Assembly (NCBI GenBank): GCA_025823825.1
Contig: GCA_025823825.1_4720.1
Reading direction: 5' to 3' (one strand)
DNA from: a phage
DNA length: 64,000 nt
Shown: positions 38,918 to 50,138 of the stretch, one piece after another
How the letters are laid out: every line of letters starts with the position of its first letter
How positions within the stretch are numbered: the stretch's first letter is position 1
Position numbers and translations under genes: made by a program
Notes under the pieces: model-generated
The model's input: only the letters and a program-made list of their open reading frames with translations
What the model was told of the DNA's origin: nothing
Database searches by the model: none

Positions 38918-41530
38918 TTAAGCGTCTGGTGTAAAATCAAAAGGAATGTCCGTACGAATGATATCATAACGTTTTCCTAGGAAATAAAACTCTTCGGGAA
39001 CCTGGCCGGGAATAATGCTATCGCCGATGAACTGCGGATACGCCCAGATGTACTGAGTGAGTCCTTCGAACTTATCCAGGTTATTTGCGTGGTTACCCAT
39101 GATACGTTTCCAGAGTTCGCGTTTATACGGTGTTTTAACATCGAATCCATAAAGCGGTGCAAGATCTTCACCAGGAACAAATCCCAGGTAATAATGGATC
39201 TGACTAACCGGGAAACCAAGCGTATCTCGCGGAATGGTGATCGCTTGCTCAGCCTTGGTGACATGCGTTTCAATAATCCAGTCGTAGCACTCCGAATAGA
39301 ACCGATCGAATTTCTCTGGGTTATACCACGCTTTGGGAAGATTCAGTTTCTCCGTGAACGCGTTCGACATGATCGTCGGCAAGAACGGAAGAACGCCGGT
39401 TTTGATCTGCGTGTATTTCGATTTTACCCGGTTAACCAAATTCCAGCAACTGTATCCTAATTGGTCGTTACAAAACTCAACGTAGAGATCGTAGTCACCA
39501 CCGGATAACGGGTTGTTAATATCACCGATGTCTGCGGCGTATTTGTTGGGATATCGGTTATTGAAAGCCAGTTTGGTTTGGTAATCGTAGATACACGGTT
39601 TGTTGTTCGCTGTATTGATCCACCACCAGGGTTCACCTATTTGCACACAAATGTCCTGGACATGGGGGTAGATGATATCAGCAAACGCGGTTAACACGTC
39701 CCCTAACCACGCCATCGCCTGTTGGTTACATGGAGACAGCAACCAGGACGGTGGTGTATATCCGGTTGCGGCGATGTTTCCTTCCCAATCCTGCTGCGCC
39801 CACTCGAACGGGCATGCTGTACTCATCAATTCGTAACTTAAACTGATGGTGACAGAGAAATGGTGTTTTGCAGCATATGCGGCGAAAGCTTCATGCCACG
39901 CGATACAGGGTGGATTTAATACATCCGTGGTGTTCACCAGTAACTTACCCGCACTTGGCGTCCAGACAGTATCGTAGAAATGCGACATTCCAACATAATG
40001 CACTAATTCATCTTGATACCCCGCATAAACCAGGTTTTCAAATACGCGCTCCGGCGTGATGTTGTAATGGTCATCGTAAGCGGTTATCGCACGAAGTTCG
40101 TGTGGTGTACAATGATGGCGATTAACCGTCATTTCTTGATACACCCCATCGATAGGAAGAATCTCGAGGGTTAAACCGAGGTCGATTGGCGTTTCCAGAT
40201 AGGTCGTTTCAGTCGCATCTTCCTTATAATGTCGAGAACTCATGCTGAACATCAACGACGTTACCGATTCGAGTTCGATAGGCTCGTCAGCATAGAACCC
40301 CGCCATTGCGTCATTGAAATCGATCGTTACGATTGCGCTTCTACCGTCTTCAGAGACATCGGTGGCGTATCGGGTTAATGAGATATACTGACGGCTATCG
40401 TCTTTGTGTACGATGGTTAGAACCGGCGGGTTTTCGGTATCTGCAAAGTTACGCTGATCGCCAGTAAACGTGATCTTCGCTTTAAAGATCAAACCGAATA
40501 ACGACGTCATGGGATCATACGCAATACAACCGTGATCCAGCGTATCCGTTGTCCGCCATTCTATCCCGACCAACCCGTTAGCGGTATGGCATCGCATATA
40601 CGCATTAAGGACCATGTCTTCACTGACAACCGCGAAGTTCTCTGTTGACTGACCGTTGATAATCCAATACATCGGTTGCCAGAGGTTACGCGTACCTTTT
40701 GCGTAGCGGTAGGTTGGTGCGCCTTTAGGGTTGCCATTATTGAGATGGAATACGGCAGTACCTTGATAATGGTCGTTCGTATTAATCGGAACACTGTAAG
40801 CATCACCGAGATCCGTACGTTCGACCTTCGTGACTGTTGCGTTTTCAAATAACCCACGTAGCGCCGGTAAACCGATATCTTCAGGCGCGTTTTCTCGACG
40901 AATCGCATCCGCGATGCGGTGGGCTAAGGCAGGGTAAATGACCTCACCCTGCTGTAGGTTTGCAAGACCTACAAAGCGATCGGGGTCGATGCTAGCAATC
41001 AATAACTCGACATCACCCTTCGTTCTATCGTCGTTAAGATATTTCAGTCCGGTAAGGTCAAGATGCTGAATAAGCGACAACAGGTTGTATTTACGGTTTT
41101 CAACAGTTAGTACAAGATCGCCTGCCCAAACCAAACTTCCCTCATCCGCTGTTACTTTAACGGATTGTCGGCCTGTGGTAGACGTTGTTGTCGTTTTATT
41201 TAATTGTCCTTGTAGGAAGTCGGTTGCGAGGTCAAAGGCAATGCCGTAACGGTCAGCGACCGCTTGCATGATTTCACGTAACTGGGTATCTTCTTCAATG
41301 ATAATCTTGACAGGTATTCCCAAGAACGCTTTAGCGAGGTCTCGTTTAACCAACGAGACGAATACGGATTTGTAGTATCGACTTCCATCTTTCCCTTTAA
41401 AAAGAATGGAGGTTGTTTCGGGTGCCGATAGAACACGTGCAAATTCAACATCGTCGAAAGTAAGAGAAAGTCCGTTTTTCTCGTTGGTTAATCTTAGTAT
41501 TTCATTTTGCGCGGTTTCATGTAACTTCAT
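38918..41530 (-). CDS. putative receptor-binding protein/tailspike (870 aa) with shared N-terminal anchor domain
   Basis: N-terminal 110 aa (RDLAKAFLGIPVKII...ADRYGIAFDL) conserved with N-termini of 47425-47952 and 48108-49862 genes; divergent C-terminal region. Confidence 0.7.
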   Translation of the reverse strand: MKLHETAQNEILRLTNEKNGLSLTFDDVEFARVLSAPETTSILFKGKDGSRYYKSVFVSLVKRDLAKAFLGIPVKIIIEEDTQLREIMQAVADRYGIAFDLATDFLQGQLNKTTTTSTTGRQSVKVTADEGSLVWAGDLVLTVENRKYNLLSLIQHLDLTGLKYLNDDRTKGDVELLIASIDPDRFVGLANLQQGEVIYPALAHRIADAIRRENAPEDIGLPALRGLFENATVTKVERTDLGDAYSVPINTNDHYQGTAVFHLNNGNPKGAPTYRYAKGTRNLWQPMYWIINGQSTENFAVVSEDMVLNAYMRCHTANGLVGIEWRTTDTLDHGCIAYDPMTSLFGLIFKAKITFTGDQRNFADTENPPVLTIVHKDDSRQYISLTRYATDVSEDGRSAIVTIDFNDAMAGFYADEPIELESVTSLMFSMSSRHYKEDATETTYLETPIDLGLTLEILPIDGVYQEMTVNRHHCTPHELRAITAYDDHYNITPERVFENLVYAGYQDELVHYVGMSHFYDTVWTPSAGKLLVNTTDVLNPPCIAWHEAFAAYAAKHHFSVTISLSYELMSTACPFEWAQQDWEGNIAATGYTPPSWLLSPCNQQAMAWLGDVLTAFADIIYPHVQDICVQIGEPWWWINTANNKPCIYDYQTKLAFNNRYPNKYAADIGDINNPLSGGDYDLYVEFCNDQLGYSCWNLVNRVKSKYTQIKTGVLPFLPTIMSNAFTEKLNLPKAWYNPEKFDRFYSECYDWIIETHVTKAEQAITIPRDTLGFPVSQIHYYLGFVPGEDLAPLYGFDVKTPYKRELWKRIMGNHANNLDKFEGLTQYIWAYPQFIGDSIIPGQVPEEFYFLGKRYDIIRTDIPFDFTPDA

Positions 41531-42305: not shown

Positions 42306-43022
42306 TTAAATTGAAGTTAGATATTGTTTACCTCCAACAAACGACGTTAACCAATTACCTGAAACAAGTTGCGATGCCCAGCCAGGCACTGCCCTACCGT
42401 TCTGGCTCATCACGTTACCTGCCCATCCCGGAAAACCCGGTCGGAAAATATATACTTGAATATGTGTTAAAGCGTTATCATTACCACTGCCAACAGCAAC
42501 GTTACGACTCCCAGATGACGGGAAATATTCTTTTAAGAACAGAGGATCGGTTGCTAATAAAGATGCGGGCCAAGGGTTCGCGGATGCATCAACATCGAAT
42601 TCGGTCCATCGCCATTTACGTCCCGTGTCGAACCATGTCGATGTACCACCACCCCTCACGGCAAGATTGCGCGCATCACGGACATTATAAATTGATTCGA
42701 TGTTACGCCATCCACCTTTTGCAGCGTTTGCTGCATAGCAAACCGCATTACCACCATTCTTCTTCTCGTAAACGGTTCGTTTGATATGAACACGGTCGAT
42801 GAACGCTTCACCGTATTTGTTGACGAGCGTTTGTGCGATATCACGAAGATCGTGCATGTGAAAAGCGATGTCTTCGTTATGGAACCATGTTGTCTGGTTC
42901 CAGACGGTACCGTTTGGTTCGGCACACATCGATCGGATATTGTTGCGTTGATTAATCGCGATAAAACCCATTGTATACCTCGTTCCTATTCTCAAAAAGG
43001 AAATTTCATACGATGACGCCAT
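42306..43022 (-). CDS. hypothetical protein (238 aa from internal ATG), paralog of 41553-42194
   Basis: Internal ATG (MASSYEISF); the upstream residues of the track ORF are a translated hairpin element whose arm GGAGGAGC serves as SD. Confidence 0.7.
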   Translation of the reverse strand: MASSYEISFLRIGTRYTMGFIAINQRNNIRSMCAEPNGTVWNQTTWFHNEDIAFHMHDLRDIAQTLVNKYGEAFIDRVHIKRTVYEKKNGGNAVCYAANAAKGGWRNIESIYNVRDARNLAVRGGGTSTWFDTGRKWRWTEFDVDASANPWPASLLATDPLFLKEYFPSSGSRNVAVGSGNDNALTHIQVYIFRPGFPGWAGNVMSQNGRAVPGWASQLVSGNWLTSFVGGKQYLTSI

Positions 43023-43026
43023 AGCA

Positions 43027-43056
43027 GCTCCTCCTTCCCTTACGGGTTGGAGGAGC
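43027..43056. repeat. GC-rich hairpin element whose arm provides the SD of 42306-43022
   Basis: Minus-strand reading GCTCCTCC-AACCCGTAAGGGAA-GGAGGAGC-TGCT-ATG. Confidence 0.6.
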
Positions 43057-43064
43057 ATACTTAA

Positions 43065-43571
43065 TTACTCGCTGATAACCTCAACGGAATTGGGATCAGC
43101 GATCATCGCACGGTCAGTAGAACAATTGAAGAAGACCATGCCGACACCATCGCCGTTCGAGTTCAGGGTTGAACTTACGTAAGACAGGGTTGGTTTATTC
43201 ATGCGGTAGAAGCGTTCGCTGGTAGCGGTATTGAACCCCAGATCAACGTAGTCTTTCACCGTGGTATACAACTGTGTGGATTCGAAAACGGTTACCGGAG
43301 AGTCGACGGTAAACTGACTACCTTCATCCACAACCAGAACTTTATCGTTCCAGATTTCAGTGGTTGAAAACTTCGGTTTCCAATGTTCGAATTCCTGGGT
43401 TGCTCCCCAGCAGGAATACACAGCGAGATTGCTGTTCTTCTCAACCGGTTTCAATCCCACCAGTTGTGTCAGGTCTTTATCCAGGTTCGGTAAGCCTTCC
43501 AGCGTAGCGCACCCACCCAGAGAAAGTACCATCAACATACCAAGAATAATCGCGCAGAGTTTCTTCATCAT
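43065..43571 (-). CDS. putative lipoprotein (168 aa)
   Basis: Signal peptide MMKKLCAIILGMLMVLSLGGC with lipobox-like LGGC. Confidence 0.7.
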   Translation of the reverse strand: MMKKLCAIILGMLMVLSLGGCATLEGLPNLDKDLTQLVGLKPVEKNSNLAVYSCWGATQEFEHWKPKFSTTEIWNDKVLVVDEGSQFTVDSPVTVFESTQLYTTVKDYVDLGFNTATSERFYRMNKPTLSYVSSTLNSNGDGVGMVFFNCSTDRAMIADPNSVEVISE

Positions 43572-43619
43572 TAGATTTCCTTATGTGTTAACGGAAGTGA
43601 CTTCCATAAGGATTGATGA

Positions 43620-44072
43620 TTACTTTTTGAGCGCTTTAAGTTCTTCTTCCAACGCTTCCACTTTTGCCGTAAGCTTCTGTACTTGTTTGATTAATGGAAC
43701 CACCAAACGTTCGTACATAACACCTTCAGCGACGAGTCCGTTAGAAGAAACGATAGCGGGGTCATCTTCTTCGGTTGCATCACGCCAGTGCACGTACTGC
43801 GGTGCGATCTCACCAACCTCTTCAGCAATCAACCCATACCAACCCCAATCCTTGTTGTCTGCTTCACATGTGGAACGATACCAAACAGGACGCATCTCCA
43901 ATACTTTATCCGCTTGTTCATCCGTGATATTCTCGATATCTTTCTTATAGCGACGCGACGACGTTGAACGAAACACATTGTTGATCCCAGAAACAGGACT
44001 GATATACATGTTAGCCCCGCTGGTTGTAGTGCTAATGTCCCATACCGCAAATCCGCCGTTACTCCCATTTTT
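43620..44072 (-). CDS. S74-type intramolecular chaperone-like domain, open frame out of phase (+1) with upstream tail fiber gene; probable frameshift-fused fiber C-terminus or homopolymer artefact
   Basis: SSRRYKKDIENI...WYGLIAEEV...PQYV...YERLVVPLIKQVQKL...LEEELKALKK matches the auto-processing chaperone pattern; frame open from 44072, first ATG only at 44009; A7 run at junction. Confidence 0.55.
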   Translation of the reverse strand, partial: KNGSNGGFAVWDISTTTSGANMYISPVSGINNVFRSTSSRRYKKDIENITDEQADKVLEMRPVWYRSTCEADNKDWGWYGLIAEEVGEIAPQYVHWRDATEEDDPAIVSSNGLVAEGVMYERLVVPLIKQVQKLTAKVEALEEELKALKK

Positions 44073-47000
44073 TTACGATCAATGTGTTGGCAATAATGTC
44101 CAGGTTATTGTCGTAACCGGTTAATTGTCTTTCCGTTACATAACTGGATAGATTGACCGAGTAGTTCTTACTGTTATAACAACGACGCCATCCTGGGCTG
44201 TTGGTACTGCCATTATAGTTGTCGTAGCTATAAATGAACTCGGAGTTGGTTTTCGCACCACTGACGGAAGACGTGGTTGCGGTCGTAACACGGATGGTAT
44301 AGTTTGTCATCCCGAAGCTAACGACCTCGATAACAGCACCAGCCAGAGGGATAATACCGCACTTGGTTTCACTGTCTGGGATGTATGCGCTGTCGGCAGC
44401 TGCGAAGGAGCAACGTGCGACCCAGGCGCGGGTATTGAATGCACCTTGGTTTTGCAACAACGTGATAAACGATGAGGTCGTAATCGAGCTGTTATTATCA
44501 CCGGTGATCAACCAGCCGGTCGGGCATGCGGTTGCGCCAACGTTTTTCGCTGTTAACGTGATGTTCTGCGATCCGTCGAAGGCTACGCCACTGATAGTGC
44601 GCGCAGTCTGCAGTTTCGTCGCCGTTGCTGCGTTCCCTGATGTGTTCTGGTTCCCTGCGGCGTTAACACCCGGCAGATTGATATTCGCACTACCGTCGAA
44701 AGACACCCCACCAATGGTGCGGGCGGTTTTCAGTTTTGTCGCCGTGGCGGCATTACCGGTCGTGTCTTGGTTACCGGTGGTGTTTACCCCAGGTAGGTTG
44801 ATATTGGCCGTTCCGTTAAATGAAACACCACCAATCGTCCGTGCCGTTTGCAACTTCGTTGCGGATGCCGCATTCCCCGTGGTGTTTTGGTTACCTGTTG
44901 TATTCACACCTGGGATACTATCCTTAGATGTGTAGATCTGTGCCCATTCCGACCAGTTCGCATCTGATGCATCACGACGCGAACGTAGGTAAGCTGGAGC
45001 GTGTGCGCCTGAAGTACCTGACCATCCAATAAGGATCTCACCTTCACCTACTGCGGTTGCTCCTTTAAGATGAACAACGTTACCGTAGGCTGTAGGGTAT
45101 CCGTTATTGTACGCTTCATACATCTGGATGCCCGTATTGCTGCCCTGGGTCGCATTAGCTAAAGCGGTGACTCGTCCCATGGAAGCGAGCACGTTAATGC
45201 TAAAGCTAATATCAGTTGTACCATCAAAGGCGACCCCATTAATCTTCCGTGCTGTTTGGAGTTTCGTGGCAGTAGCCGCATTACCAGAGGTACTCTGATT
45301 ACCTGCTTTGTTCACGCCTGGTAAATCAATGTTGGCGGTTCCATCAAAGGACACACCCCCTATGGTTCTCGCCGTCTGAAGTTTTGTTGCTGAACCGGCG
45401 TTTCCGGAAGTGCTTTGATTACCCGCCGCGTTAACACCCGGTAGGTTAATGCTAGCAGAACCATCAAAAGAAACACCACCGATTGTGACAGCCGTTTTCA
45501 ATTTCGTGGCTGTCGCAGCGTTACCCGTTGTATTCTGATTGCCAGCTGCATTGACGCCAGGTAATGCGATATCAGCTGTGCCATCGAACGCGACACCGCC
45601 TATTTTACGGGCGGTTTGTAGCTTGGTTGCTGTAGCGGCATTACCGCTGGTATTTTGCGTACCGGCTTTATTTACACCGGGAAGATCGATGTTAGCAGAA
45701 CCGTCGAAGCTGACGCCACCTATTGTTCTTGCGGTAGCGAGTTTAGTTGCTGTGGTTGCAGCATTACCAGCCTTTAACCATTCGCCCCATGGGCCATCCA
45801 CGCCGTTCCATGAAGCTGTTAAACTACGTACGTAAATATTTCCTGTACGTACGGTGTAACGCTGTGTTCCACCGAATTGCCCAGCTGGGAGCACTTCGAT
45901 GTAACCTACTGCGTTTGCTTCAGGGAAATTGTGGGCAGCATCAGCATTCGTTGACGTTTGTTTGGACCAAATACCCACAGACGCTTCAACCGGACCGTAG
46001 GTATTTAGATTCGCATCGGTGGGAAGCTGTCCTCGGAAACGTCGGAATAATGAAGCTGTTAACCCCAACGTTGTTTGCATCCCTTCAATGCTTGACTGCG
46101 ATAAAAGCGCCCGAGCTGTCGACGTGATAGCCGCTAAAGCAACCTTATCCGTACCGGTAAAATACGGGAATTTGTTTGCTGAAGTTGCTAAACCTGAAAG
46201 GGCGGTCAGTAATGCGTTAAGGGGTTGTTTCCCAGCCAGCGCGTTAGTTACTGTTGTTGCGAAATTAGGGTCGTTGCCTAAAGCTTGAGCCAGCTCATTA
46301 AGCGTATTTAGCGCTTCTGGCGACGAGTCGATCAGTGATGCGATAGCACGCATCACAAATTCCGTGTTGGCGATCTGTTGACTGCTATCGTTATCTGCAG
46401 CCGTAGGTGCTGCTGGGATACCGGTGAACACAGGGTTATTAAGATCTGCCTTGAGAGCGATGAGACGTCTAAGCGCTTCGACATCGACTTTCAGGTTTTC
46501 CCATCCGACGAGATAACCATCACCGGTTGTATGATAACGGTTGTACCAAAAATCACCATTGACACCGAAATAGAATATTCCTTTCTCTTCGTATTGTGGG
46601 CCGGAACTGTTCCGTGATGAGCTAATGTATTTTATTTCGATAAGGCCGTCGAATACCACTCCTGGGATGATTTTATTATTTCCAGCTGGCTGTGATACTT
46701 GGTACATCCCCGGGGTTGCGGCTTTAACCCACGTTAAGAATTCTGTTACTCCGGCGCTACCACTGAAATTCTTAACGTCGGTAAGTATCGCCCCATAACC
46801 GAACATACCGGGTAGAGCAACTCGTCCGCTGGTACGGTCACGAATATTTGATGCGACGACAGGCAGCTGTTTACGAACATTGTTAACCGCCTTAGGTGTG
46901 GCCGATTTTGTCTCGTCATCGCTATCGATGGCGTTGCTCAGGATGGTCAGTCCTCGAGTATTTGTGGTCGCATCAGGAAGAAACGCGTTATCCAACACCT

Positions 47001-47418
47001 TAAGTTGTACAGCGCTCGTGTTACTAACAACGAGATACATCTGACAGTTAAGAACGCTGGATGCACCTTCAGTAGGCACCGGCTTATATCTTTCCGGTGC
47101 GCTGCAAACAGCGATCAGAACACCCTGATCGTCATACAGACCGATTTCACGTACCCAGAATCCACCTTGGTTTACAGGAATAATACCCTCAACAATAATC
47201 CTGGTTGTGTCATCCGTATCGACACGGATATTAGCAACTTCCCCACGATAAACTTCGTGTACGAGCGCTGTTTGACCAACAGCCGGTGTCGGTATCGACC
47301 CGTTACCATCGCCAACAGCAAAATGTGTGATTTTTAGTTTCTCGCCACCAGGAAGTAGTGCGGCGGCGATACGTTCAGCGCCTTTATCGGTAATGACCGT
47401 TTTATATGTTGTACTCAT
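44059..47418 (-). CDS. tail fiber protein (1119 aa) with P2 gpH-like N-terminal domain and tandem 33-aa fiber repeats
   Basis: N-terminus TVITDKGAERIAAAL...ITHFAVGDGNG...GQTALVHEVYRG...GGFWVREIGLYDDQGVLIAV resembles the P2 gpH / lambda Stf fiber N-terminus (from memory); 8-9 repeats of TARTIGGVSFDGSANIxLPGVNxAGNQxTSGNAATATKLQ. Confidence 0.85.
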   Translation of the reverse strand: MSTTYKTVITDKGAERIAAALLPGGEKLKITHFAVGDGNGSIPTPAVGQTALVHEVYRGEVANIRVDTDDTTRIIVEGIIPVNQGGFWVREIGLYDDQGVLIAVCSAPERYKPVPTEGASSVLNCQMYLVVSNTSAVQLKVLDNAFLPDATTNTRGLTILSNAIDSDDETKSATPKAVNNVRKQLPVVASNIRDRTSGRVALPGMFGYGAILTDVKNFSGSAGVTEFLTWVKAATPGMYQVSQPAGNNKIIPGVVFDGLIEIKYISSSRNSSGPQYEEKGIFYFGVNGDFWYNRYHTTGDGYLVGWENLKVDVEALRRLIALKADLNNPVFTGIPAAPTAADNDSSQQIANTEFVMRAIASLIDSSPEALNTLNELAQALGNDPNFATTVTNALAGKQPLNALLTALSGLATSANKFPYFTGTDKVALAAITSTARALLSQSSIEGMQTTLGLTASLFRRFRGQLPTDANLNTYGPVEASVGIWSKQTSTNADAAHNFPEANAVGYIEVLPAGQFGGTQRYTVRTGNIYVRSLTASWNGVDGPWGEWLKAGNAATTATKLATARTIGGVSFDGSANIDLPGVNKAGTQNTSGNAATATKLQTARKIGGVAFDGTADIALPGVNAAGNQNTTGNAATATKLKTAVTIGGVSFDGSASINLPGVNAAGNQSTSGNAGSATKLQTARTIGGVSFDGTANIDLPGVNKAGNQSTSGNAATATKLQTARKINGVAFDGTTDISFSINVLASMGRVTALANATQGSNTGIQMYEAYNNGYPTAYGNVVHLKGATAVGEGEILIGWSGTSGAHAPAYLRSRRDASDANWSEWAQIYTSKDSIPGVNTTGNQNTTGNAASATKLQTARTIGGVSFNGTANINLPGVNTTGNQDTTGNAATATKLKTARTIGGVSFDGSANINLPGVNAAGNQNTSGNAATATKLQTARTISGVAFDGSQNITLTAKNVGATACPTGWLITGDNNSSITTSSFITLLQNQGAFNTRAWVARCSFAAADSAYIPDSETKCGIIPLAGAVIEVVSFGMTNYTIRVTTATTSSVSGAKTNSEFIYSYDNYNGSTNSPGWRRCYNSKNYSVNLSSYVTERQLTGYDNNLDIIANTLIVKKWE
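44540..45760 (-). repeat. in-frame tandem repeats of about 99 bp (33 aa) inside the tail fiber gene, two blocks
   Basis: Repeated peptide unit read in translation; coordinates back-calculated from protein positions, approximate. Confidence 0.7.
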
Positions 47419-47424
47419 GGCGTT

Positions 47425-47952
47425 TTATCCCGGGTAAATAGTGATGGTGTCACCAACGATAGTTGTAGCACCGGCGTAAAGATACGCTGGTGATGCCTCA
47501 CGTTGGTTTGTCACGATAAGATCCAGTCTCCCACGCCAAACCACGGAGGTATTCGCGATGGGAATCGAGATCTTCTTGGAAGTATCGTCACGAAAATTAA
47601 TGGCGGTAGCAAGGGTAACTGAATCAAAATCAACGTCGGGTTCAAAGTTGAATCCGTATTGATCTGAAATAGCTTGAATAACCGCTCTTATGGTTGTTGT
47701 TTCAACCGACTCCAAAACGATTTTTATCGGTATTCCTAGAAATGCTTTCGCGATATCACGTCGTGTGTAAGTGATAAAACTTTCACCACACCACCTTGTT
47801 CCTTCATTTGCTGTGACGATCACTTTTGCCCTGTTAGCACCAGAACTCCCATCCAGGGTTAAAGTGAGATCGGAGTTGCTGAATACACTACCGTTACGTT
47901 GGTTTATCAACGTAATAAGTTCGTCTTTCCATGGTGGGTAAAGTGAACGCAT
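47425..47952 (-). CDS. short protein (175 aa) made mostly of the shared RBP N-terminal anchor domain
   Basis: Internal ATG (MRSLYPPWKDELITLINQRNG) preceded by GGAGGAGGG; aligns with N-termini of 38918 and 48108 genes (RRDIAKAFLGIPIKIV...DQYGFNFE). Confidence 0.65.
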   Translation of the reverse strand: MRSLYPPWKDELITLINQRNGSVFSNSDLTLTLDGSSGANRAKVIVTANEGTRWCGESFITYTRRDIAKAFLGIPIKIVLESVETTTIRAVIQAISDQYGFNFEPDVDFDSVTLATAINFRDDTSKKISIPIANTSVVWRGRLDLIVTNQREASPAYLYAGATTIVGDTITIYPG

Positions 47953-47975
47953 ATGCGCACCCTCCTCCAATAATC

Positions 47976-48020
47976 AAATTAAAATGCAAAACGCCTCGAA
48001 ACCAGGGTGCGATTCGAGGC
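47976..48020 (-). terminator. putative intrinsic terminator (hairpin GCCTCGAA-N12-TTCGAGGC followed by U-rich tract on minus strand)
   Basis: 8-bp stem, then GUUUUGCAUUUUAAUUUG on the minus-strand transcript, downstream of 48108-49862. Confidence 0.4.
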
Positions 48021-48107
48021 AAACGTAAACAGTCTTAACGACCGCATAAAATTCCGCGCATATTACCCCCCCCCCTCGACGAAGCGAGGTAGAGGAGGAT
48101 AACACGA

Positions 48108-49862
48108 TTATGCTGCTACATACCCAGGCCAACGTTCTCTTGGCCAGTTTGTTGCGCCCTGTCCAACGTTGTCCTTACCAGAAGTTACATTACTTACATC
48201 CCAACCACTAAGATCCTGGTTAAATGCGGTGTTGTTACGCATCATGAGGTCGATATTACGTAATGATTGGGTATTCCAGCCGGAAATGTCTTGGTTGAAT
48301 GCCGTGTTGTAAGCAAACATGTTAACAACGTTTTGTAATTTTGAAGTGTTCCAGCCGCTAATATCGCCATTGAACTGCATGTTCGAGAACATACTGCTAG
48401 CATCGATAAGACTATCTGTTTTCCAGTTAACCAGCTTGTTCTCATCAAGTGCGTTGCAACTACTGAACATGTAACTCATGTTGTTAACTTTGGATACATC
48501 CCATTTATCTAACCCGTTACCAACGAACTCGTAACAAGCTTGGAACATCCAGCTCATGTCGGTAACCTGGCACACATTCCATTTGCTAAAGTCGAGGTTG
48601 AGTTTTGCGCATCCGGAGAAAGTTTTATACATACTGGTGATACGACTAACATCCCATTCTTGAATGTTAGGATCATTAAGTATAGATAAGAATTGGAACA
48701 ATCCGTCTAACGACGTCCATTTCTCTGGAATACGGTTTGGTACTGTACGGAGCGATGAAAGGTTATTGGTTGACGGAGAGCGGAACATACCGTTATCCCA
48801 ATTTACGATTTCCGTAATGTTGTACCCACGGATCGTTTGGCGTCCATTACCATTATACACAGACCCTGTTGCAGTTATTGTATATTCGTTTGTATCAGCA
48901 TACGTATATTCAGCCTGTGTAGGCCACTCACCTATTACATCCCTATTCCCATCACCCCAGTCAATGGAAATATCTATCCAACCATCAAGATCTAGGGTAA
49001 CGGTCCCGCCATTGGTCTTCAGGATGTATTTACCTGCATTGTCGGTATAATAACAAACAATCATCGCACCGTACAGGTTACCAATTTGCCAATCATCCTT
49101 TTGAGTTACCGCGATTTGTGCTGTACCACGCTGTAAGAAAAGTACCGTACGGTTCTCGTCAGTCTGTAGTGCGGTTAGTGCTTGAGTCTTATCATCGTCG
49201 GTAATTTCACCGGCTTCCATTAAAGCACTTAACATTCTTTCGAAGTACTCGATAGGCAACTGAGGTCCTACCGACATATCAACTGATGGAACAGTGAGAT
49301 CATCCAATGCTGCTGCCGTTGCGAGGACTAATGATCCCTTGGCGGTGTCTGTTTCTTGGAGGTAACGCAGTCCCGTAATCTGGTACGCTTGAATGATTGT
49401 AATCAGATCCAGTGTATCGTTAATGACCTGTACTTGTAAATGTCCAGACCAAACATAGCTGCTTTCAGCAATCGGTAATTCGACCGACTGAATACCCGAC
49501 GTTTCAAAACTGATCTTCTTATTAAGATCGGCTTCCAGGAAATCAACAGCTAGGTCGAAATTTATACCGTACTTCTCAGCGATGGAATCTACAATGTTCC
49601 TGAAAGCAACATCGGTACTTACGATGAAACGTAACGGGATCCCGGTGAACGCGTTGGCAATATCTCGACGAACATACGTGAGCGACTGCTCGAAGAAATA
49701 AGGACTGTTATCTCCAGGTTTGATGGTTACCTGGCATACTTCAGGATGTTCAGCTGGAATGAAAGATTCGAATTTAACGTCGGTTTCCTTCAACGATAGC
49801 ATGTTCTTCCGGTTTACCAACGCCAGAAGATCAGCTTTCCACCCAGGATAAACTGTAGACAT
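48108..49862 (-). CDS. putative receptor-binding protein (585 aa): shared N-terminal anchor domain plus C-terminal DUF285/BspA-type repeats
   Basis: Internal ATG (MSTVYPGWKADLLALVNRKN) with GGAG RBS; C-terminal repeats ...MFxxxxxFNQDISGWNTxxxxNxxxMF... typical of the Mycoplasma DUF285 / BspA-like family. Confidence 0.7.
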   Translation of the reverse strand: MSTVYPGWKADLLALVNRKNMLSLKETDVKFESFIPAEHPEVCQVTIKPGDNSPYFFEQSLTYVRRDIANAFTGIPLRFIVSTDVAFRNIVDSIAEKYGINFDLAVDFLEADLNKKISFETSGIQSVELPIAESSYVWSGHLQVQVINDTLDLITIIQAYQITGLRYLQETDTAKGSLVLATAAALDDLTVPSVDMSVGPQLPIEYFERMLSALMEAGEITDDDKTQALTALQTDENRTVLFLQRGTAQIAVTQKDDWQIGNLYGAMIVCYYTDNAGKYILKTNGGTVTLDLDGWIDISIDWGDGNRDVIGEWPTQAEYTYADTNEYTITATGSVYNGNGRQTIRGYNITEIVNWDNGMFRSPSTNNLSSLRTVPNRIPEKWTSLDGLFQFLSILNDPNIQEWDVSRITSMYKTFSGCAKLNLDFSKWNVCQVTDMSWMFQACYEFVGNGLDKWDVSKVNNMSYMFSSCNALDENKLVNWKTDSLIDASSMFSNMQFNGDISGWNTSKLQNVVNMFAYNTAFNQDISGWNTQSLRNIDLMMRNNTAFNQDLSGWDVSNVTSGKDNVGQGATNWPRERWPGYVAA

Positions 49863-50063
49863 AAGCACTCCAATCATGGGGGCGAACGCCCCCCATCAGT
49901 TAAATGATCGTTTACGTCGCGTAAGGGTAATATAATTGCTGTGAGCCATATCAGAAGTTCACAACATTCTGAATCATAAGGTTACGTCGTTGGAAACAAA
50001 CCGATACAGATTCTTCATAGAACATTGAGATGATGGAAACCTAATTCGTACCATGAAAGCCGC

Positions 50064-50118
50064 AATAAAAAAAAGAAAAATAGGAAAACGGTGTTCATCC
50101 TTTTAGGGATGAACACCG
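50064..50118 (-). terminator. rho-independent terminator downstream of 50139-50717
   Basis: Perfect 12-bp stem CGGTGTTCATCC/GGATGAACACCG with 6-nt loop, followed on the minus strand by a long U-rich tract. Confidence 0.75.
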
Positions 50119-50138
50119 CGTACCGTTATGTTGAATGC

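What the first reader, a model, noticed from the sequence alone, without database searches (positions are those of the whole stretch)
48108..49862. DUF285/BspA-type repeats in a phage receptor-binding protein
The C-terminal half shows at least five tandem units of the pattern ...(S/T)xMFxxCxxFNQDIS.WNVSxVTNMSxMF..., the hallmark of the DUF285 (Mycoplasma-type) / BspA-like repeat family. Its use as the distal domain of a phage tail protein suggests an adhesin-like binding module, possibly acquired from a host surface protein.
Basis: partly seen in the sequence, partly recalled or inferred. Interest (0 to 1): 0.55.

Follow-up and report, generated by a model that had tools for sequence, protein, structure and literature searches.

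The report
Jumbo-phage baseplate-filament protein with leucine-rich-repeat tip
This gene from a Goslar-like giant E. coli phage joins a module thought to build filaments on the phage baseplate to a leucine-rich-repeat (DUF285) domain that probably binds the host, but this kind of protein was annotated and described in 2026, so it is a new member of a known kind.

Summary

The window comes from a relative of the E. coli jumbo phage Goslar, a chimallivirus. The N-terminal 275 residues are not a classical tail-fibre anchor. They form a DUF7941 module, which is specific to chimalliviruses. A 2026 preprint on the Goslar virion proposes that this module forms head-to-tail filaments anchored at the peripheral baseplate. 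My model of it has PhiKZ gp127, an outer peripheral baseplate protein, as its best PDB match.

Goslar gp161 is a 45-48 % identical paralogue with three repeats. It was detected in virion preparations at about 111 copies.

In the window, the gene occupies the slot in the tail-fibre cluster where Goslar carries gp93 and gp92. Among 50 orthologues the N-terminus is conserved and the distal part is variable.

The best reading is a swappable adhesin tip on baseplate filaments, but binding has not been tested. Acquisition from the E. coli host is not supported. The exact protein is already in NCBI as "DUF285 domain-containing protein". Novelty: new member of a known kind.

The parts
48108..49862 (-). 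Complete CDS, 584 aa plus stop codon (48108-48110). Architecture: DUF7941 module, DWGDG beta-sandwich, DUF285/PARCEL LRR.
   Evidence: ORF list; Pfam; orthologues are 584 aa; the exact protein is NCBI HCQ4163556.1.
49868..49871 (-). GGAG ribosome-binding site, 5 nt upstream of the ATG at 49862.
   Evidence: Direct reading of the sequence.
49878..49893 (-). G+C hairpin (GGGGGC-GTTC-GCCCCC) that covers the upstream in-frame ATG at 49877. This argues against that start.
   Evidence: Direct reading.
50088..50119 (-). Strong intrinsic-terminator-like hairpin (13 pairs plus a T-run) after the upstream 192-aa gene, so the DUF285 gene starts its own unit.
   Evidence: Terminator scan; sequence.
49419..49862 (-). 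DUF7941 N-terminal globular domain, aa 1-148.
49278..49418 (-). DUF7941 linker, aa 149-195. Sequence is conserved (LxLITII..LTGLxYL..KGSL) but the segment is predicted disordered in the monomer.
   Evidence: pLDDT below 50 at aa 152-192; alignments A4. The docking role is taken from the preprint and is an inference for this protein.
49038..49277 (-). DUF7941 C-terminal globular domain, aa 196-275 (helices followed by beta-hairpins).
   Evidence: 36 % identity to the gp86 homologue through aa 245; the three-paralogue profile A5 matches an orthologue (P0041) through aa 273; pLDDT mostly 70-95.
48813..49037 (-). Beta-sandwich with an IDWGDG...YTY...YTITATG motif (PKD-like by motif only), aa 276-350. 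It is the most variable part of the protein.
   Evidence: AF2 predicts strands with pLDDT above 90; entropy 0.82. The same unit precedes DUF285 repeats in the bacterial protein P0062. There is no Pfam PKD match.
48717..48812 (-). N-terminal cap of the solenoid, aa 351-382 (ITEIVNWDNG...VPNRIPEKW).
   Evidence: Alignment A1; model.
48186..48716 (-). Seven DUF285/PARCEL repeats of 24-26 aa, aa 383-559.
48111..48185 (-). C-terminal cap, aa 560-584 (TSGKDNVGQGATNWPRERWPGYVAA).
47993..48020 (-). Terminator-like hairpin (8-bp stem GCCTCGAA/TTCGAGGC, 12-nt loop, T-rich tail) between this gene and the next.
   Evidence: Direct reading. The automatic scan did not list it because the loop exceeds 8 nt.
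47425..47952 (-). Neighbour: 175-aa protein that is DUF7941 only (Goslar gp91 homologue, 88 % identical). It lies immediately upstream of the tail-fibre gene.
   Evidence: Pfam; tblastn. The ATG at 47952 has a GGAGGAGGG RBS.
44059..47418 (-). Neighbour: tail fibre, 1119 aa (collar-fibre N-terminus, P1 gpS-like repeats).
   Evidence: Pfam and PHROGs.
38918..41530 (-). Third DUF7941 protein of the window (870 aa; a complete DUF7941 module plus NCTSP_N and a TIM barrel). Homologue of Goslar gp86.
   Evidence: Pfam; profile search.

Best explanation
The gene encodes a virion protein of a Goslar-like chimallivirus.

[quoted passage not shown] In the Goslar/PhiKZ model, the linker and C-domain of one protomer dock on the N-domain of the next. 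This builds flexible filaments that start at the outer peripheral baseplate. This step is taken from the preprint and is inferred for this protein.

**Payload (aa 276-584).** It consists of a small DWGDG beta-sandwich followed by a capped solenoid of seven DUF285/PARCEL leucine-rich repeats. I propose it is an adhesin displayed on or at the end of those filaments. It would bind a surface structure of the enterobacterial host in many copies, capturing cells before the tail fibres and baseplate commit.

**What is shown and what is inferred.**
- Shown: the domain architecture, the LRR fold prediction, the genomic position and the pattern of conservation.
- Inferred: virion location, filament incorporation and binding.

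**Role of the locus.** The gene is a self-contained cassette flanked by terminator-like hairpins. It occupies the slot where Goslar has gp93 plus gp92 (DUF7941 proteins, one carrying a large non-LRR payload). The locus therefore acts as an exchange point for host-recognition modules.
For: **Architecture**
- DUF7941 plus DUF285 by Pfam.
- The AF2 model has mean pLDDT 82.9, and above 90 over most of aa 200-584.

**DUF7941 module**
- NTD and CTD are folded and the linker (aa 152-192) is below pLDDT 50.

**Experimental context from the preprint**
- DUF7941 proteins are chimallivirus-specific.
- Purified gp22 forms filaments.
- gp161 (DUF7941 plus LRR) is virion-associated at about 111 copies, with 27 peptides and 54 % coverage.
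- gp161 is 45-48 % identical to this protein.

**Genomic position**
- The gene lies in the tail-fibre cluster: gp95 and gp94 homologues, this gene, gp91 homologue, fibre.
- It replaces gp93 plus gp92 of Goslar.

**Conservation pattern typical of receptor-binding proteins**
- Entropy is 0.25 in the N-domain, 0.82 in the beta-sandwich and 0.50 in the LRR.
- Within the repeats, scaffold positions are invariant and positions 1-2, 4-5, 9, 11-12 and 24-25 vary.

**Modularity**
- The DUF285 block also occurs joined to a gp92-type body (L004/P0060).
- This protein's N-terminal 219 aa occur joined to fibre repeats plus an S74 chaperone (L003/P0054).

**Recurrence**
- 11 of 50 long DUF7941 representatives carry DUF285, with 2-9 repeats.
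Against: - There is no experiment on this protein or on any DUF285 phage protein: no binding, no localisation, no host-range genetics.
- The filament-cloud model is a preprint proposal. It rests on AlphaFold dimers, negative stain of one protein (gp22) and mass spectrometry. The same preparation also contained chimallin and PhuZ, so 'virion-associated' is not airtight.
- No DUF7941 density was seen in the Goslar baseplate map.
- No sequence-level PDB match was found.
- The chimeric loci L003 and L004 are single short-read contigs and could be assembly artefacts. The gp93/gp92 deletion junction, however, recurs in an independent IMG/VR contig, L005.
Confidence: 0.6

Rival explanations
1. It is an ejected or internal virion protein. 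The LRR domain would bind a host cytoplasmic or envelope protein after injection, as the LRR effectors of type III secretion systems do, rather than a receptor on the cell surface.
For: - Chimallivirus virions package and inject many proteins.
- The paralogue gp161 is present at about 111 copies per virion, more than the tail fibre gp90 at about 43.
Against: - The N-terminal module's best structural match is a protein of the outer peripheral baseplate.
- The gene sits among fibre genes and occupies the slot of a large DUF7941 protein with a non-LRR payload.
- The conserved-anchor, variable-tip pattern fits an external recognition protein.
- A high copy number is what the filament model predicts.
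Confidence: 0.1
2. It is an adhesin for something other than the host cell, such as gut mucus, other surfaces or bystander cells. It would keep virions where hosts are found, like the Ig-like capsid decorations in the 'adherence to mucus' model.
For: - The payload combines a beta-sandwich with an LRR, as in bacterial surface adhesins.
- Relatives come from animal-associated enterobacterial isolates, and Goslar itself came from duck dung.
- Nearly identical proteins (same 90 % cluster) occur on phage contigs from E. coli, Salmonella and Shigella assemblies. This could mean the ligand is not host-specific.
Against: - The gene lies in a locus where host-recognition cassettes alternate.
- The variable positions suggest diversifying pressure, as expected from a changing bacterial surface.
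- No evidence bears on this directly, in either direction.
Confidence: 0.1
3. One reading: the DUF285 block was captured recently from a surface protein of the bacterial host.
For: - DUF285/PARCEL repeats are typical of bacterial surface proteins and are known to move horizontally (PMC2996958).
- A bacterial BspA-family protein shares the whole DWGDG-plus-repeat unit.
Against: - No match in 5,426 complete E. coli genomes.
- The best cellular relatives are only about 33-35 % identical and are not enterobacterial.
- Other jumbo phages are equally close, at 32-36 %.
- The DUF7941-DUF285 fusion exists in 11 clusters at the 50 % identity level, with 2-9 repeats, which indicates long residence in phages.
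Confidence: 0.05
4. It is a dispensable accessory gene that is not part of the virion, or a decaying one. It would be carried between two terminators and have no role in adsorption.
For: - It appears to be monocistronic, flanked by terminator-like hairpins.
- It is absent from Goslar at this locus.
- Deletion variants exist (L005).
Against: - The reading frame is intact and 584 aa long in about 50 clusters spanning 62-95 % identity, with scaffold residues strictly conserved.
- The paralogue is abundant in virion preparations.
Confidence: 0.05

Closest known systems
[quoted passage not shown] It is one of ten DUF7941 proteins in the Goslar virion study (bioRxiv 10.64898/2026.04.21.720040).
   Same: - Same architecture: DUF7941 module, DWGDG beta-sandwich, DUF285 LRR.
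- 45-48 % identity over aa 8-451.
- Same phage group.
- Both types appear to coexist in related genomes: P0013 and P0055 both have a longest contig of 235,874 bp.
   Different: - Seven repeats here against three in gp161.
- 584 aa against 483 aa.
- Different locus: gp161 lies next to a helicase gene, while this gene lies in the tail-fibre cluster in place of gp93 plus gp92.
- gp161 has mass-spectrometry evidence (about 111 copies per virion); this protein has none.
Goslar gp93 plus gp92, the occupants of the same slot in Goslar.
   Same: - Same position between the gp94 and gp91 homologues.
- Both are listed as DUF7941 proteins in the preprint.
- Proposed role in host recognition.
   Different: - Two genes instead of one.
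- gp92 is a 1198-aa protein with no DUF285, and Pfam finds no family in it. [quoted passage not shown]
- Low abundance: about 5 copies per virion.
PhiKZ gp127 with gp126, in the outer peripheral baseplate (PDB 9xqd).
   Different: PhiKZ gp126 and gp127 are DUF7941-only proteins without an LRR payload. The similarity is too weak to be seen by sequence search against the PDB.
Bacterial DUF285 / PARCEL / 'BspA family' surface proteins, for example Flavivirga eckloniae P0062, the Mycoplasma and Listeria lipoproteins that define PF03382 and TIGR02167, and the fold of Bacteroides ovatus BACOVA_04585 (4fs7).
   Same: - Same repeat family by profile.
- Same DWGDG-plus-repeat unit.
- Same LRR solenoid fold.
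   Different: - No signal peptide, lipobox or T9SS sorting domain. The protein is anchored by a phage module instead.
- About 33 % identity only.
- Pfam LRR_5, the BspA-type model proper, does not match.
Giant DUF285 proteins of other jumbo phages: OBP_145 (1713 aa), Yubaba_00370 'outer surface protein' (1915 aa) and the PARCEL ORFs of Vibrio phage pir03.
   Same: DUF285 arrays in jumbo phages, 32-36 % identical in the repeats. The OBP and Yubaba genes lie next to a baseplate or structural gene.
   Different: They are much larger, have many more repeats and show no DUF7941 module by Pfam.

Membership tests
DUF285 / PARCEL repeat proteins (PF03382, TIGR02167) | Profile match above the curated cut-off | tested here: met
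   PF03382: 150.4 bits against a cut-off of 25, E = 2.3e-44. TIGR02167: 65.4 bits against 30, four stretches.
DUF285 / PARCEL repeat proteins (PF03382, TIGR02167) | Tandem array of units of about 25-26 residues with a conserved MF...FN.DIS.WNVS..V scaffold | tested here: met
   Seven units of 24-26 aa at aa 383-559. Scaffold positions are invariant across 50 orthologues.
DUF285 / PARCEL repeat proteins (PF03382, TIGR02167) | Export and surface anchoring by a signal peptide or lipobox, as in the founding Mycoplasma and Listeria lipoproteins | tested here: not met
   The N-terminus MSTVYPGWKADLLALVNRKN has no hydrophobic core or lipobox, and a DUF7941 domain starts at about residue 12. No dedicated signal-peptide predictor was run.
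DUF285 / PARCEL repeat proteins (PF03382, TIGR02167) | Palindromic coding DNA, the 'P' of PARCEL (PMC2996958) | tested here: inconclusive
   A six-frame search with the repeat profile finds the motif only in the coding frame. Only ORFs of at least 60 aa were scanned, and no nucleotide-level test was done.
BspA-type LRR (Pfam LRR_5, PF13306) | Match to the LRR_5 profile | tested here: not met
   No LRR_5 match at E <= 0.1. One other DUF7941 protein out of 50 does match LRR_5.
BspA-type LRR (Pfam LRR_5, PF13306) | LRR solenoid fold similar to solved BspA-like proteins | tested here: met
Chimallivirus DUF7941 filament proteins (PF25613; Goslar gp22/gp23/gp161, PhiKZ gp126/gp127) | Profile match above the curated cut-off | tested here: met
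   76.9 bits against a cut-off of 27, E = 2.4e-21. 36 % identity to the full-length DUF7941 module of the gp86 homologue.
Chimallivirus DUF7941 filament proteins (PF25613; Goslar gp22/gp23/gp161, PhiKZ gp126/gp127) | N-terminal globular domain, disordered linker and C-terminal globular domain | tested here: met
   In the AF2 models aa 1-150 and 196-272 are folded, and aa 152-192 are below pLDDT 50. This is a prediction.
Chimallivirus DUF7941 filament proteins (PF25613; Goslar gp22/gp23/gp161, PhiKZ gp126/gp127) | Encoded by a chimallivirus | tested here: met
   The window is syntenic with Goslar. Neighbouring proteins are 79-100 % identical, and 721 bases match at 87.8 % DNA identity.
Chimallivirus DUF7941 filament proteins (PF25613; Goslar gp22/gp23/gp161, PhiKZ gp126/gp127) | N-domain fold like PhiKZ gp127 in the outer peripheral baseplate | tested here: inconclusive
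Chimallivirus DUF7941 filament proteins (PF25613; Goslar gp22/gp23/gp161, PhiKZ gp126/gp127) | Head-to-tail oligomerisation into filaments, and presence in the virion | not testable with these tools
   No multimer prediction or experiment was available. The preprint shows filaments for gp22, and about 111 copies per virion for the paralogue gp161.
Classical tail fibre or tailspike receptor-binding proteins | Fibre or spike anchor and trimeric shaft (for example Phage_tail_fib, a beta-helix or a C-terminal chaperone) | tested here: not met
   The protein has no such Pfam or PHROG domains. The neighbouring 1119-aa gene has them. The model is a monomeric multi-domain chain.

The most novel reading that the evidence does not exclude
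The LRR tip may not be a host-receptor binder at all. It could tether virions to animal mucus or other non-host surfaces, or it could act after ejection on a host protein. In that case a chimallivirus would display about 100 copies of a bacterial-type adhesin on micron-long filaments for habitat retention rather than for infection.

A milder reading concerns how the payloads change. Recombination between paralogous DUF7941 N-domains may be a built-in mechanism for exchanging the payloads of the filament cloud (LRR, glycosidase, fibre). The chimeras in L003, L004 and L005 would be its footprints.
Probability: 0.12. Interest if true: 0.6.

Novelty: new member of a known kind. Interest (0 to 1): 0.35.

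Why it matters
How chimalliviruses (nucleus-forming jumbo phages) find their hosts is still open. The peripheral baseplate and fibres are unresolved in both the Goslar and PhiKZ maps.

This gene gives a concrete, testable handle on that question. It is a self-contained cassette carrying a seven-repeat LRR payload on a DUF7941 anchor. It sits exactly where the reference phage carries a different payload. About 50 natural variants are available, and their differences cluster on the payload.

That makes it a good candidate for host-range swapping experiments and for engineering jumbo phages against E. coli, Salmonella and Shigella. It would also be a first functional test of a DUF285/PARCEL domain, a repeat family that was still uncharacterised when it was defined in 2010 (PMC2996958), for which my literature searches found no phage functional study.

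The idea itself (DUF7941 plus LRR for host recognition) was published as a preprint in April 2026, and the protein is already annotated. The finding therefore extends known work and does not open a new field.

Tried and rejected
- **Sequence search against the PDB.** The whole protein gave no match. A nine-sequence DUF7941 profile gave only a chance hit at E = 0.38.
- **PKD assignment for aa 276-350.** It is suggested by the IDWGDG motif, but no Pfam PKD family matches at E <= 0.1. I call it PKD-like by motif only.
- **Host origin.** Near and distant DNA searches of complete E. coli genomes were both empty.
- **TATATTAC motif upstream of the gene.** I recalled it as a PhiKZ-type early promoter. 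It occurs twice in the window against 2.15 expected, so it is not meaningful. The sigma-70 scan is below the shuffle expectation and is in any case not applicable to chimallivirus transcription.
- **P0060 as an 'independent N-terminus'.** Its first 380 aa turned out to be gp92 residues 743-1126. It is a gp92::DUF285 chimera, not a new scaffold.
- **DUF7941 in the giant DUF285 proteins of OBP and Yubaba.** Not found.
- **Literature searches.** Searches for DUF285 or BspA phage receptor-binding proteins returned genome annotations only, with no functional study.
Full report
**1. What is at the coordinates**

The region holds one long minus-strand ORF, 48108..49877 (589 aa).
- GGAG lies 5 nt upstream of that ATG.
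- The earlier ATG is buried in a GGGGGC-GTTC-GCCCCC hairpin.
- Nearly all of about 50 orthologue clusters are 584 aa long.

A 13-bp terminator-like hairpin with a T-run (50119-50088) follows the upstream gene. A second hairpin with a T-rich tail (48020-47993) follows this gene. The gene therefore looks like a self-contained unit.

**2.

- Pfam DUF285 (PF03382) matches at E = 2.3e-44, 150 bits against a cut-off of 25.
- NCBIfam TIGR02167, now called the PARCEL repeat, matches at E = 2.5e-18.
- Anchoring on the conserved tryptophan gives seven units of 24-26 residues at aa 383-559, plus a 25-residue cap.
- A profile made from the units re-finds each of them at 1e-10 to 1e-13 (partly circular, since it was built from them) and finds nothing else in the window.
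- The Pfam model for BspA-type repeats proper (LRR_5) does not match. 'BspA-type' is therefore true only in the loose sense that NCBI uses when naming such proteins.

**3. Which phage**

- The window shares 87.8 % DNA identity over 721 bases with E. coli phage vB_EcoM_Goslar, a 237-kb chimallivirus.
- It is syntenic with Goslar, and neighbouring proteins are 79-100 % identical.
- The exact 584-aa protein is NCBI HCQ4163556.1, 'DUF285 domain-containing protein [Escherichia coli]', on a 241,106-bp contig.
- Relatives in the same 90 % clusters lie on 236-248 kb contigs in assemblies labelled E. coli O157, Salmonella enterica and Shigella flexneri.

**4. Architecture**

| Residues | Element | Main evidence |
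|---|---|---|
| 1-148 | DUF7941 N-terminal globular domain | Pfam PF25613, E = 2.4e-21 |
| 149-195 | DUF7941 linker, conserved in sequence, pLDDT below 50 | |
| 196-275 | DUF7941 C-terminal globular domain | |
| 276-350 | beta-sandwich with an IDWGDG...YTY...YTITATG signature | |
| 351-382 | solenoid N-cap | |
| 383-559 | seven DUF285/PARCEL repeats | |
| 560-584 | C-cap | |

- BLAST against the window's own 870-aa DUF7941 protein (the gp86 homologue, whose DUF7941 match covers the full 276-position profile) gives 36 % identity over aa 11-245.
- A three-paralogue profile aligns an orthologue through aa 273.
- The full-length AlphaFold2 model has mean pLDDT 82.9, and above 90 over most of aa 200-584.
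- A bacterial BspA-family protein from Flavivirga has the same DWGDG-plus-repeat unit, twice. The sandwich therefore belongs to the DUF285 module.
- Foldseek on the whole model found nothing.

**5. What DUF7941 is**

A bioRxiv preprint of April 2026 (10.64898/2026.04.21.720040) reports the cryo-EM structure and virion proteome of Goslar. Its relevant findings are:
- DUF7941 is a chimallivirus-specific module found in ten Goslar proteins.
- gp22 and gp23 are present at about 580 and 2,140 copies per virion.
- Purified gp22 forms filaments.
- AlphaFold predicts head-to-tail docking of one protomer's linker and C-domain on the next protomer's N-domain.
- PhiKZ gp127 (N-domain) sits at the outer peripheral baseplate.
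- The authors propose a 'DUF7941 fiber cloud' for host recognition. [quoted passage not shown] The fibre gp90 is at about 43 copies, and gp92 and gp93 at about 5 each.

Two caveats come from the preprint itself. The preparation also contained chimallin and PhuZ. No DUF7941 density was resolved in the Goslar baseplate map.

**6. Relation to gp161 and to the locus**

Goslar gp161 is the closest characterised relative:
- It is 45-48 % identical over aa 8-451.
- It has the same domain order but three repeats instead of seven.
- It lies next to a helicase gene, far from the fibre cluster.

The window's gene is a second paralogue. An orthologue (P0013) and a gp161-type protein (P0055) both have a longest contig of 235,874 bp, so they probably sit in one genome.

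Gene order at the locus:

| Phage | Order |
|---|---|
| Goslar | gp95, gp94, gp93 (276 aa, DUF7941), gp92 (1198 aa), gp91 (175 aa, DUF7941), gp90 fibre |
| This window | gp95 homologue, gp94 homologue, this gene, gp91 homologue, fibre |

The LRR cassette thus replaces the gp93-plus-gp92 cassette.

Other contigs show further mosaics:
- **L003** keeps gp93 and gp92. It fuses this protein's first 219 residues (96 % identical) to fibre repeats and an S74 chaperone.
- **L004** joins gp92 residues 743-1126 to the DUF285 block (77 % identical).
- **L005** has the same gp93/gp92 deletion as L004. It also carries a small DUF7941 protein whose first ~80 residues are nearly identical to this protein's and whose remainder matches gp91.

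L003 and L004 are single short-read contigs and might be chimeric. The junction shared by L004 and L005, which come from different sources, argues that at least some of these rearrangements are real.

**7. Signs of a recognition role**

Across 50 orthologues (62-95 % identity), mean column entropy by region is:

| Region | Entropy |
|---|---|
| DUF7941 N-domain | 0.25 |
| Linker and C-domain | 0.53 |
| DWGDG sandwich | 0.82 |
| Repeats | 0.50 |

Within the repeats the variation is periodic. Scaffold positions (M/F at positions 3 and 6-7, F-N at 13-14, D-I-S-x-W-N-V at 17-23) are nearly invariant. Positions 1-2, 4-5, 9, 11-12 and 24-25 vary. This is the usual picture of a conserved anchor with a diversifying binding surface. 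It is suggestive, not proof.

**8. How common the fusion is**

- A DUF7941 profile finds only 226 clusters (at 50 % identity) among 1.84 billion representatives.
- Of 50 long members, 11 carry DUF285, one carries LRR_5 and one carries the NCTSP domains.
- The DUF285-bearing members are 467-872 aa long with 2-9 detectable repeats.
- DUF285 also occurs in at least 116 phage records, mostly jumbo phages and cyanophages.
- It occurs in giant proteins next to baseplate genes in OBP and Yubaba that lack DUF7941.
- It occurs in the annotated PARCEL ORFs of Vibrio phage pir03.

**9. Origin**

- The PARCEL paper documents a patchy, horizontally spread distribution of the repeat (PMC2996958).
- Nothing here points to the host. 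There is no match in complete E. coli genomes.
- The best cellular relatives are about 33-35 % identical and come from unrelated phyla.
- Other phages are equally distant.
- The direction and date of any transfer cannot be told from these data.

**10. Verdict**

- **Observation:** confirmed.
- **Interpretation:** partly supported. It is a DUF285 LRR on a probable host-recognition protein. The carrier, however, is the chimallivirus DUF7941 filament module and not a classical tail protein, and host acquisition is unsupported.
- **Mechanism:** my preferred reading, with confidence about 0.6, is a multivalent adhesin displayed on baseplate-anchored DUF7941 filaments, encoded in an exchangeable cassette.
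- **Novelty:** new member of a known kind. The protein is already annotated, and the concept was published for its paralogue gp161.

Noticed in passing
window 44059-44074 (minus strand); ORFs 44059..47418 and 43620..44009: The tail-fibre gene is split from its C-terminal S74 intramolecular-chaperone ORF by a frameshift in a run of seven A (44068-44074, GTAAAAAAATGGG). With six A the frame reads ...IVKNGSNGGFAVWDISTTTSGANMYISPV..., exactly as in the fused protein P0054. This could be a homopolymer sequencing error, a real inactivating or phase-variable change, or a site of transcriptional or translational slippage.
   Followed up: partly
L003 8001-11096; L004 70-2045; L005 2224-4416: The fibre-cluster locus is mosaic across Goslar-like contigs. 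Variants seen: an in-frame fusion of this protein's N-terminal 219 aa to fibre repeats plus chaperone; a gp92(743-1126)::DUF285 chimera; a recurrent gp93(1-81)/gp92(732-) deletion; and a small DUF7941 protein that is a hybrid of this gene's N-domain and gp91. This suggests recombination between paralogous DUF7941 domains, unless some of the contigs are assembly chimeras.
   Followed up: partly
protein clusters of window 48108-49862: Near-identical proteins lie on 236-248 kb contigs in pathogen-surveillance assemblies labelled E. coli O157, Salmonella enterica (including Typhimurium) and Shigella flexneri. One 90 % cluster has 142 members. Goslar-like jumbo phages therefore seem to travel with enterobacterial isolates, as a carrier state or as contamination, and their genes are named as bacterial proteins.
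   Followed up: no
window 38918-41530 (minus strand): An 870-aa protein with a full DUF7941 module followed by NCTSP_N and TIM-barrel_NCTSP domains, which Pfam names after a non-contractile tail sheath protein. It is the homologue of Goslar gp86. It is the third DUF7941 protein in the window.
   Followed up: partly
window 47425-47970 (minus strand): The mechanical ORF list starts the gp91 homologue at a TTG (181 aa). The ATG at 47952, preceded by GGAGGAGGG, gives the 175 aa seen in Goslar.
   Followed up: yes
window 48066-48075: A run of ten G (on the gene strand) lies about 30 nt after the stop codon, just downstream of a short CCTCG/CGAGG hairpin. Its significance is unknown, and it is a likely trouble spot for sequencing.
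   Followed up: no
L011 (OBP 135917-141058) and L012 (Yubaba 42930-48677): Both phages encode very large proteins made largely of DUF285 repeats: 1713 aa in OBP (Pfam E = 3.5e-155) and 1915 aa in Yubaba (E = 8.7e-182). Neither has DUF7941. Each lies next to a gene annotated as baseplate assembly or structural.
   Followed up: partly
bioRxiv 10.64898/2026.04.21.720040 compared with the PDB library: The preprint cites the PhiKZ outer peripheral baseplate entry as PDB 9QXD. The structure library lists the PHIKZ127 chain under 9xqd. One of the two is probably a transposition. The preprint text also twice writes DUF4391 where DUF7941 is meant.
   Followed up: no
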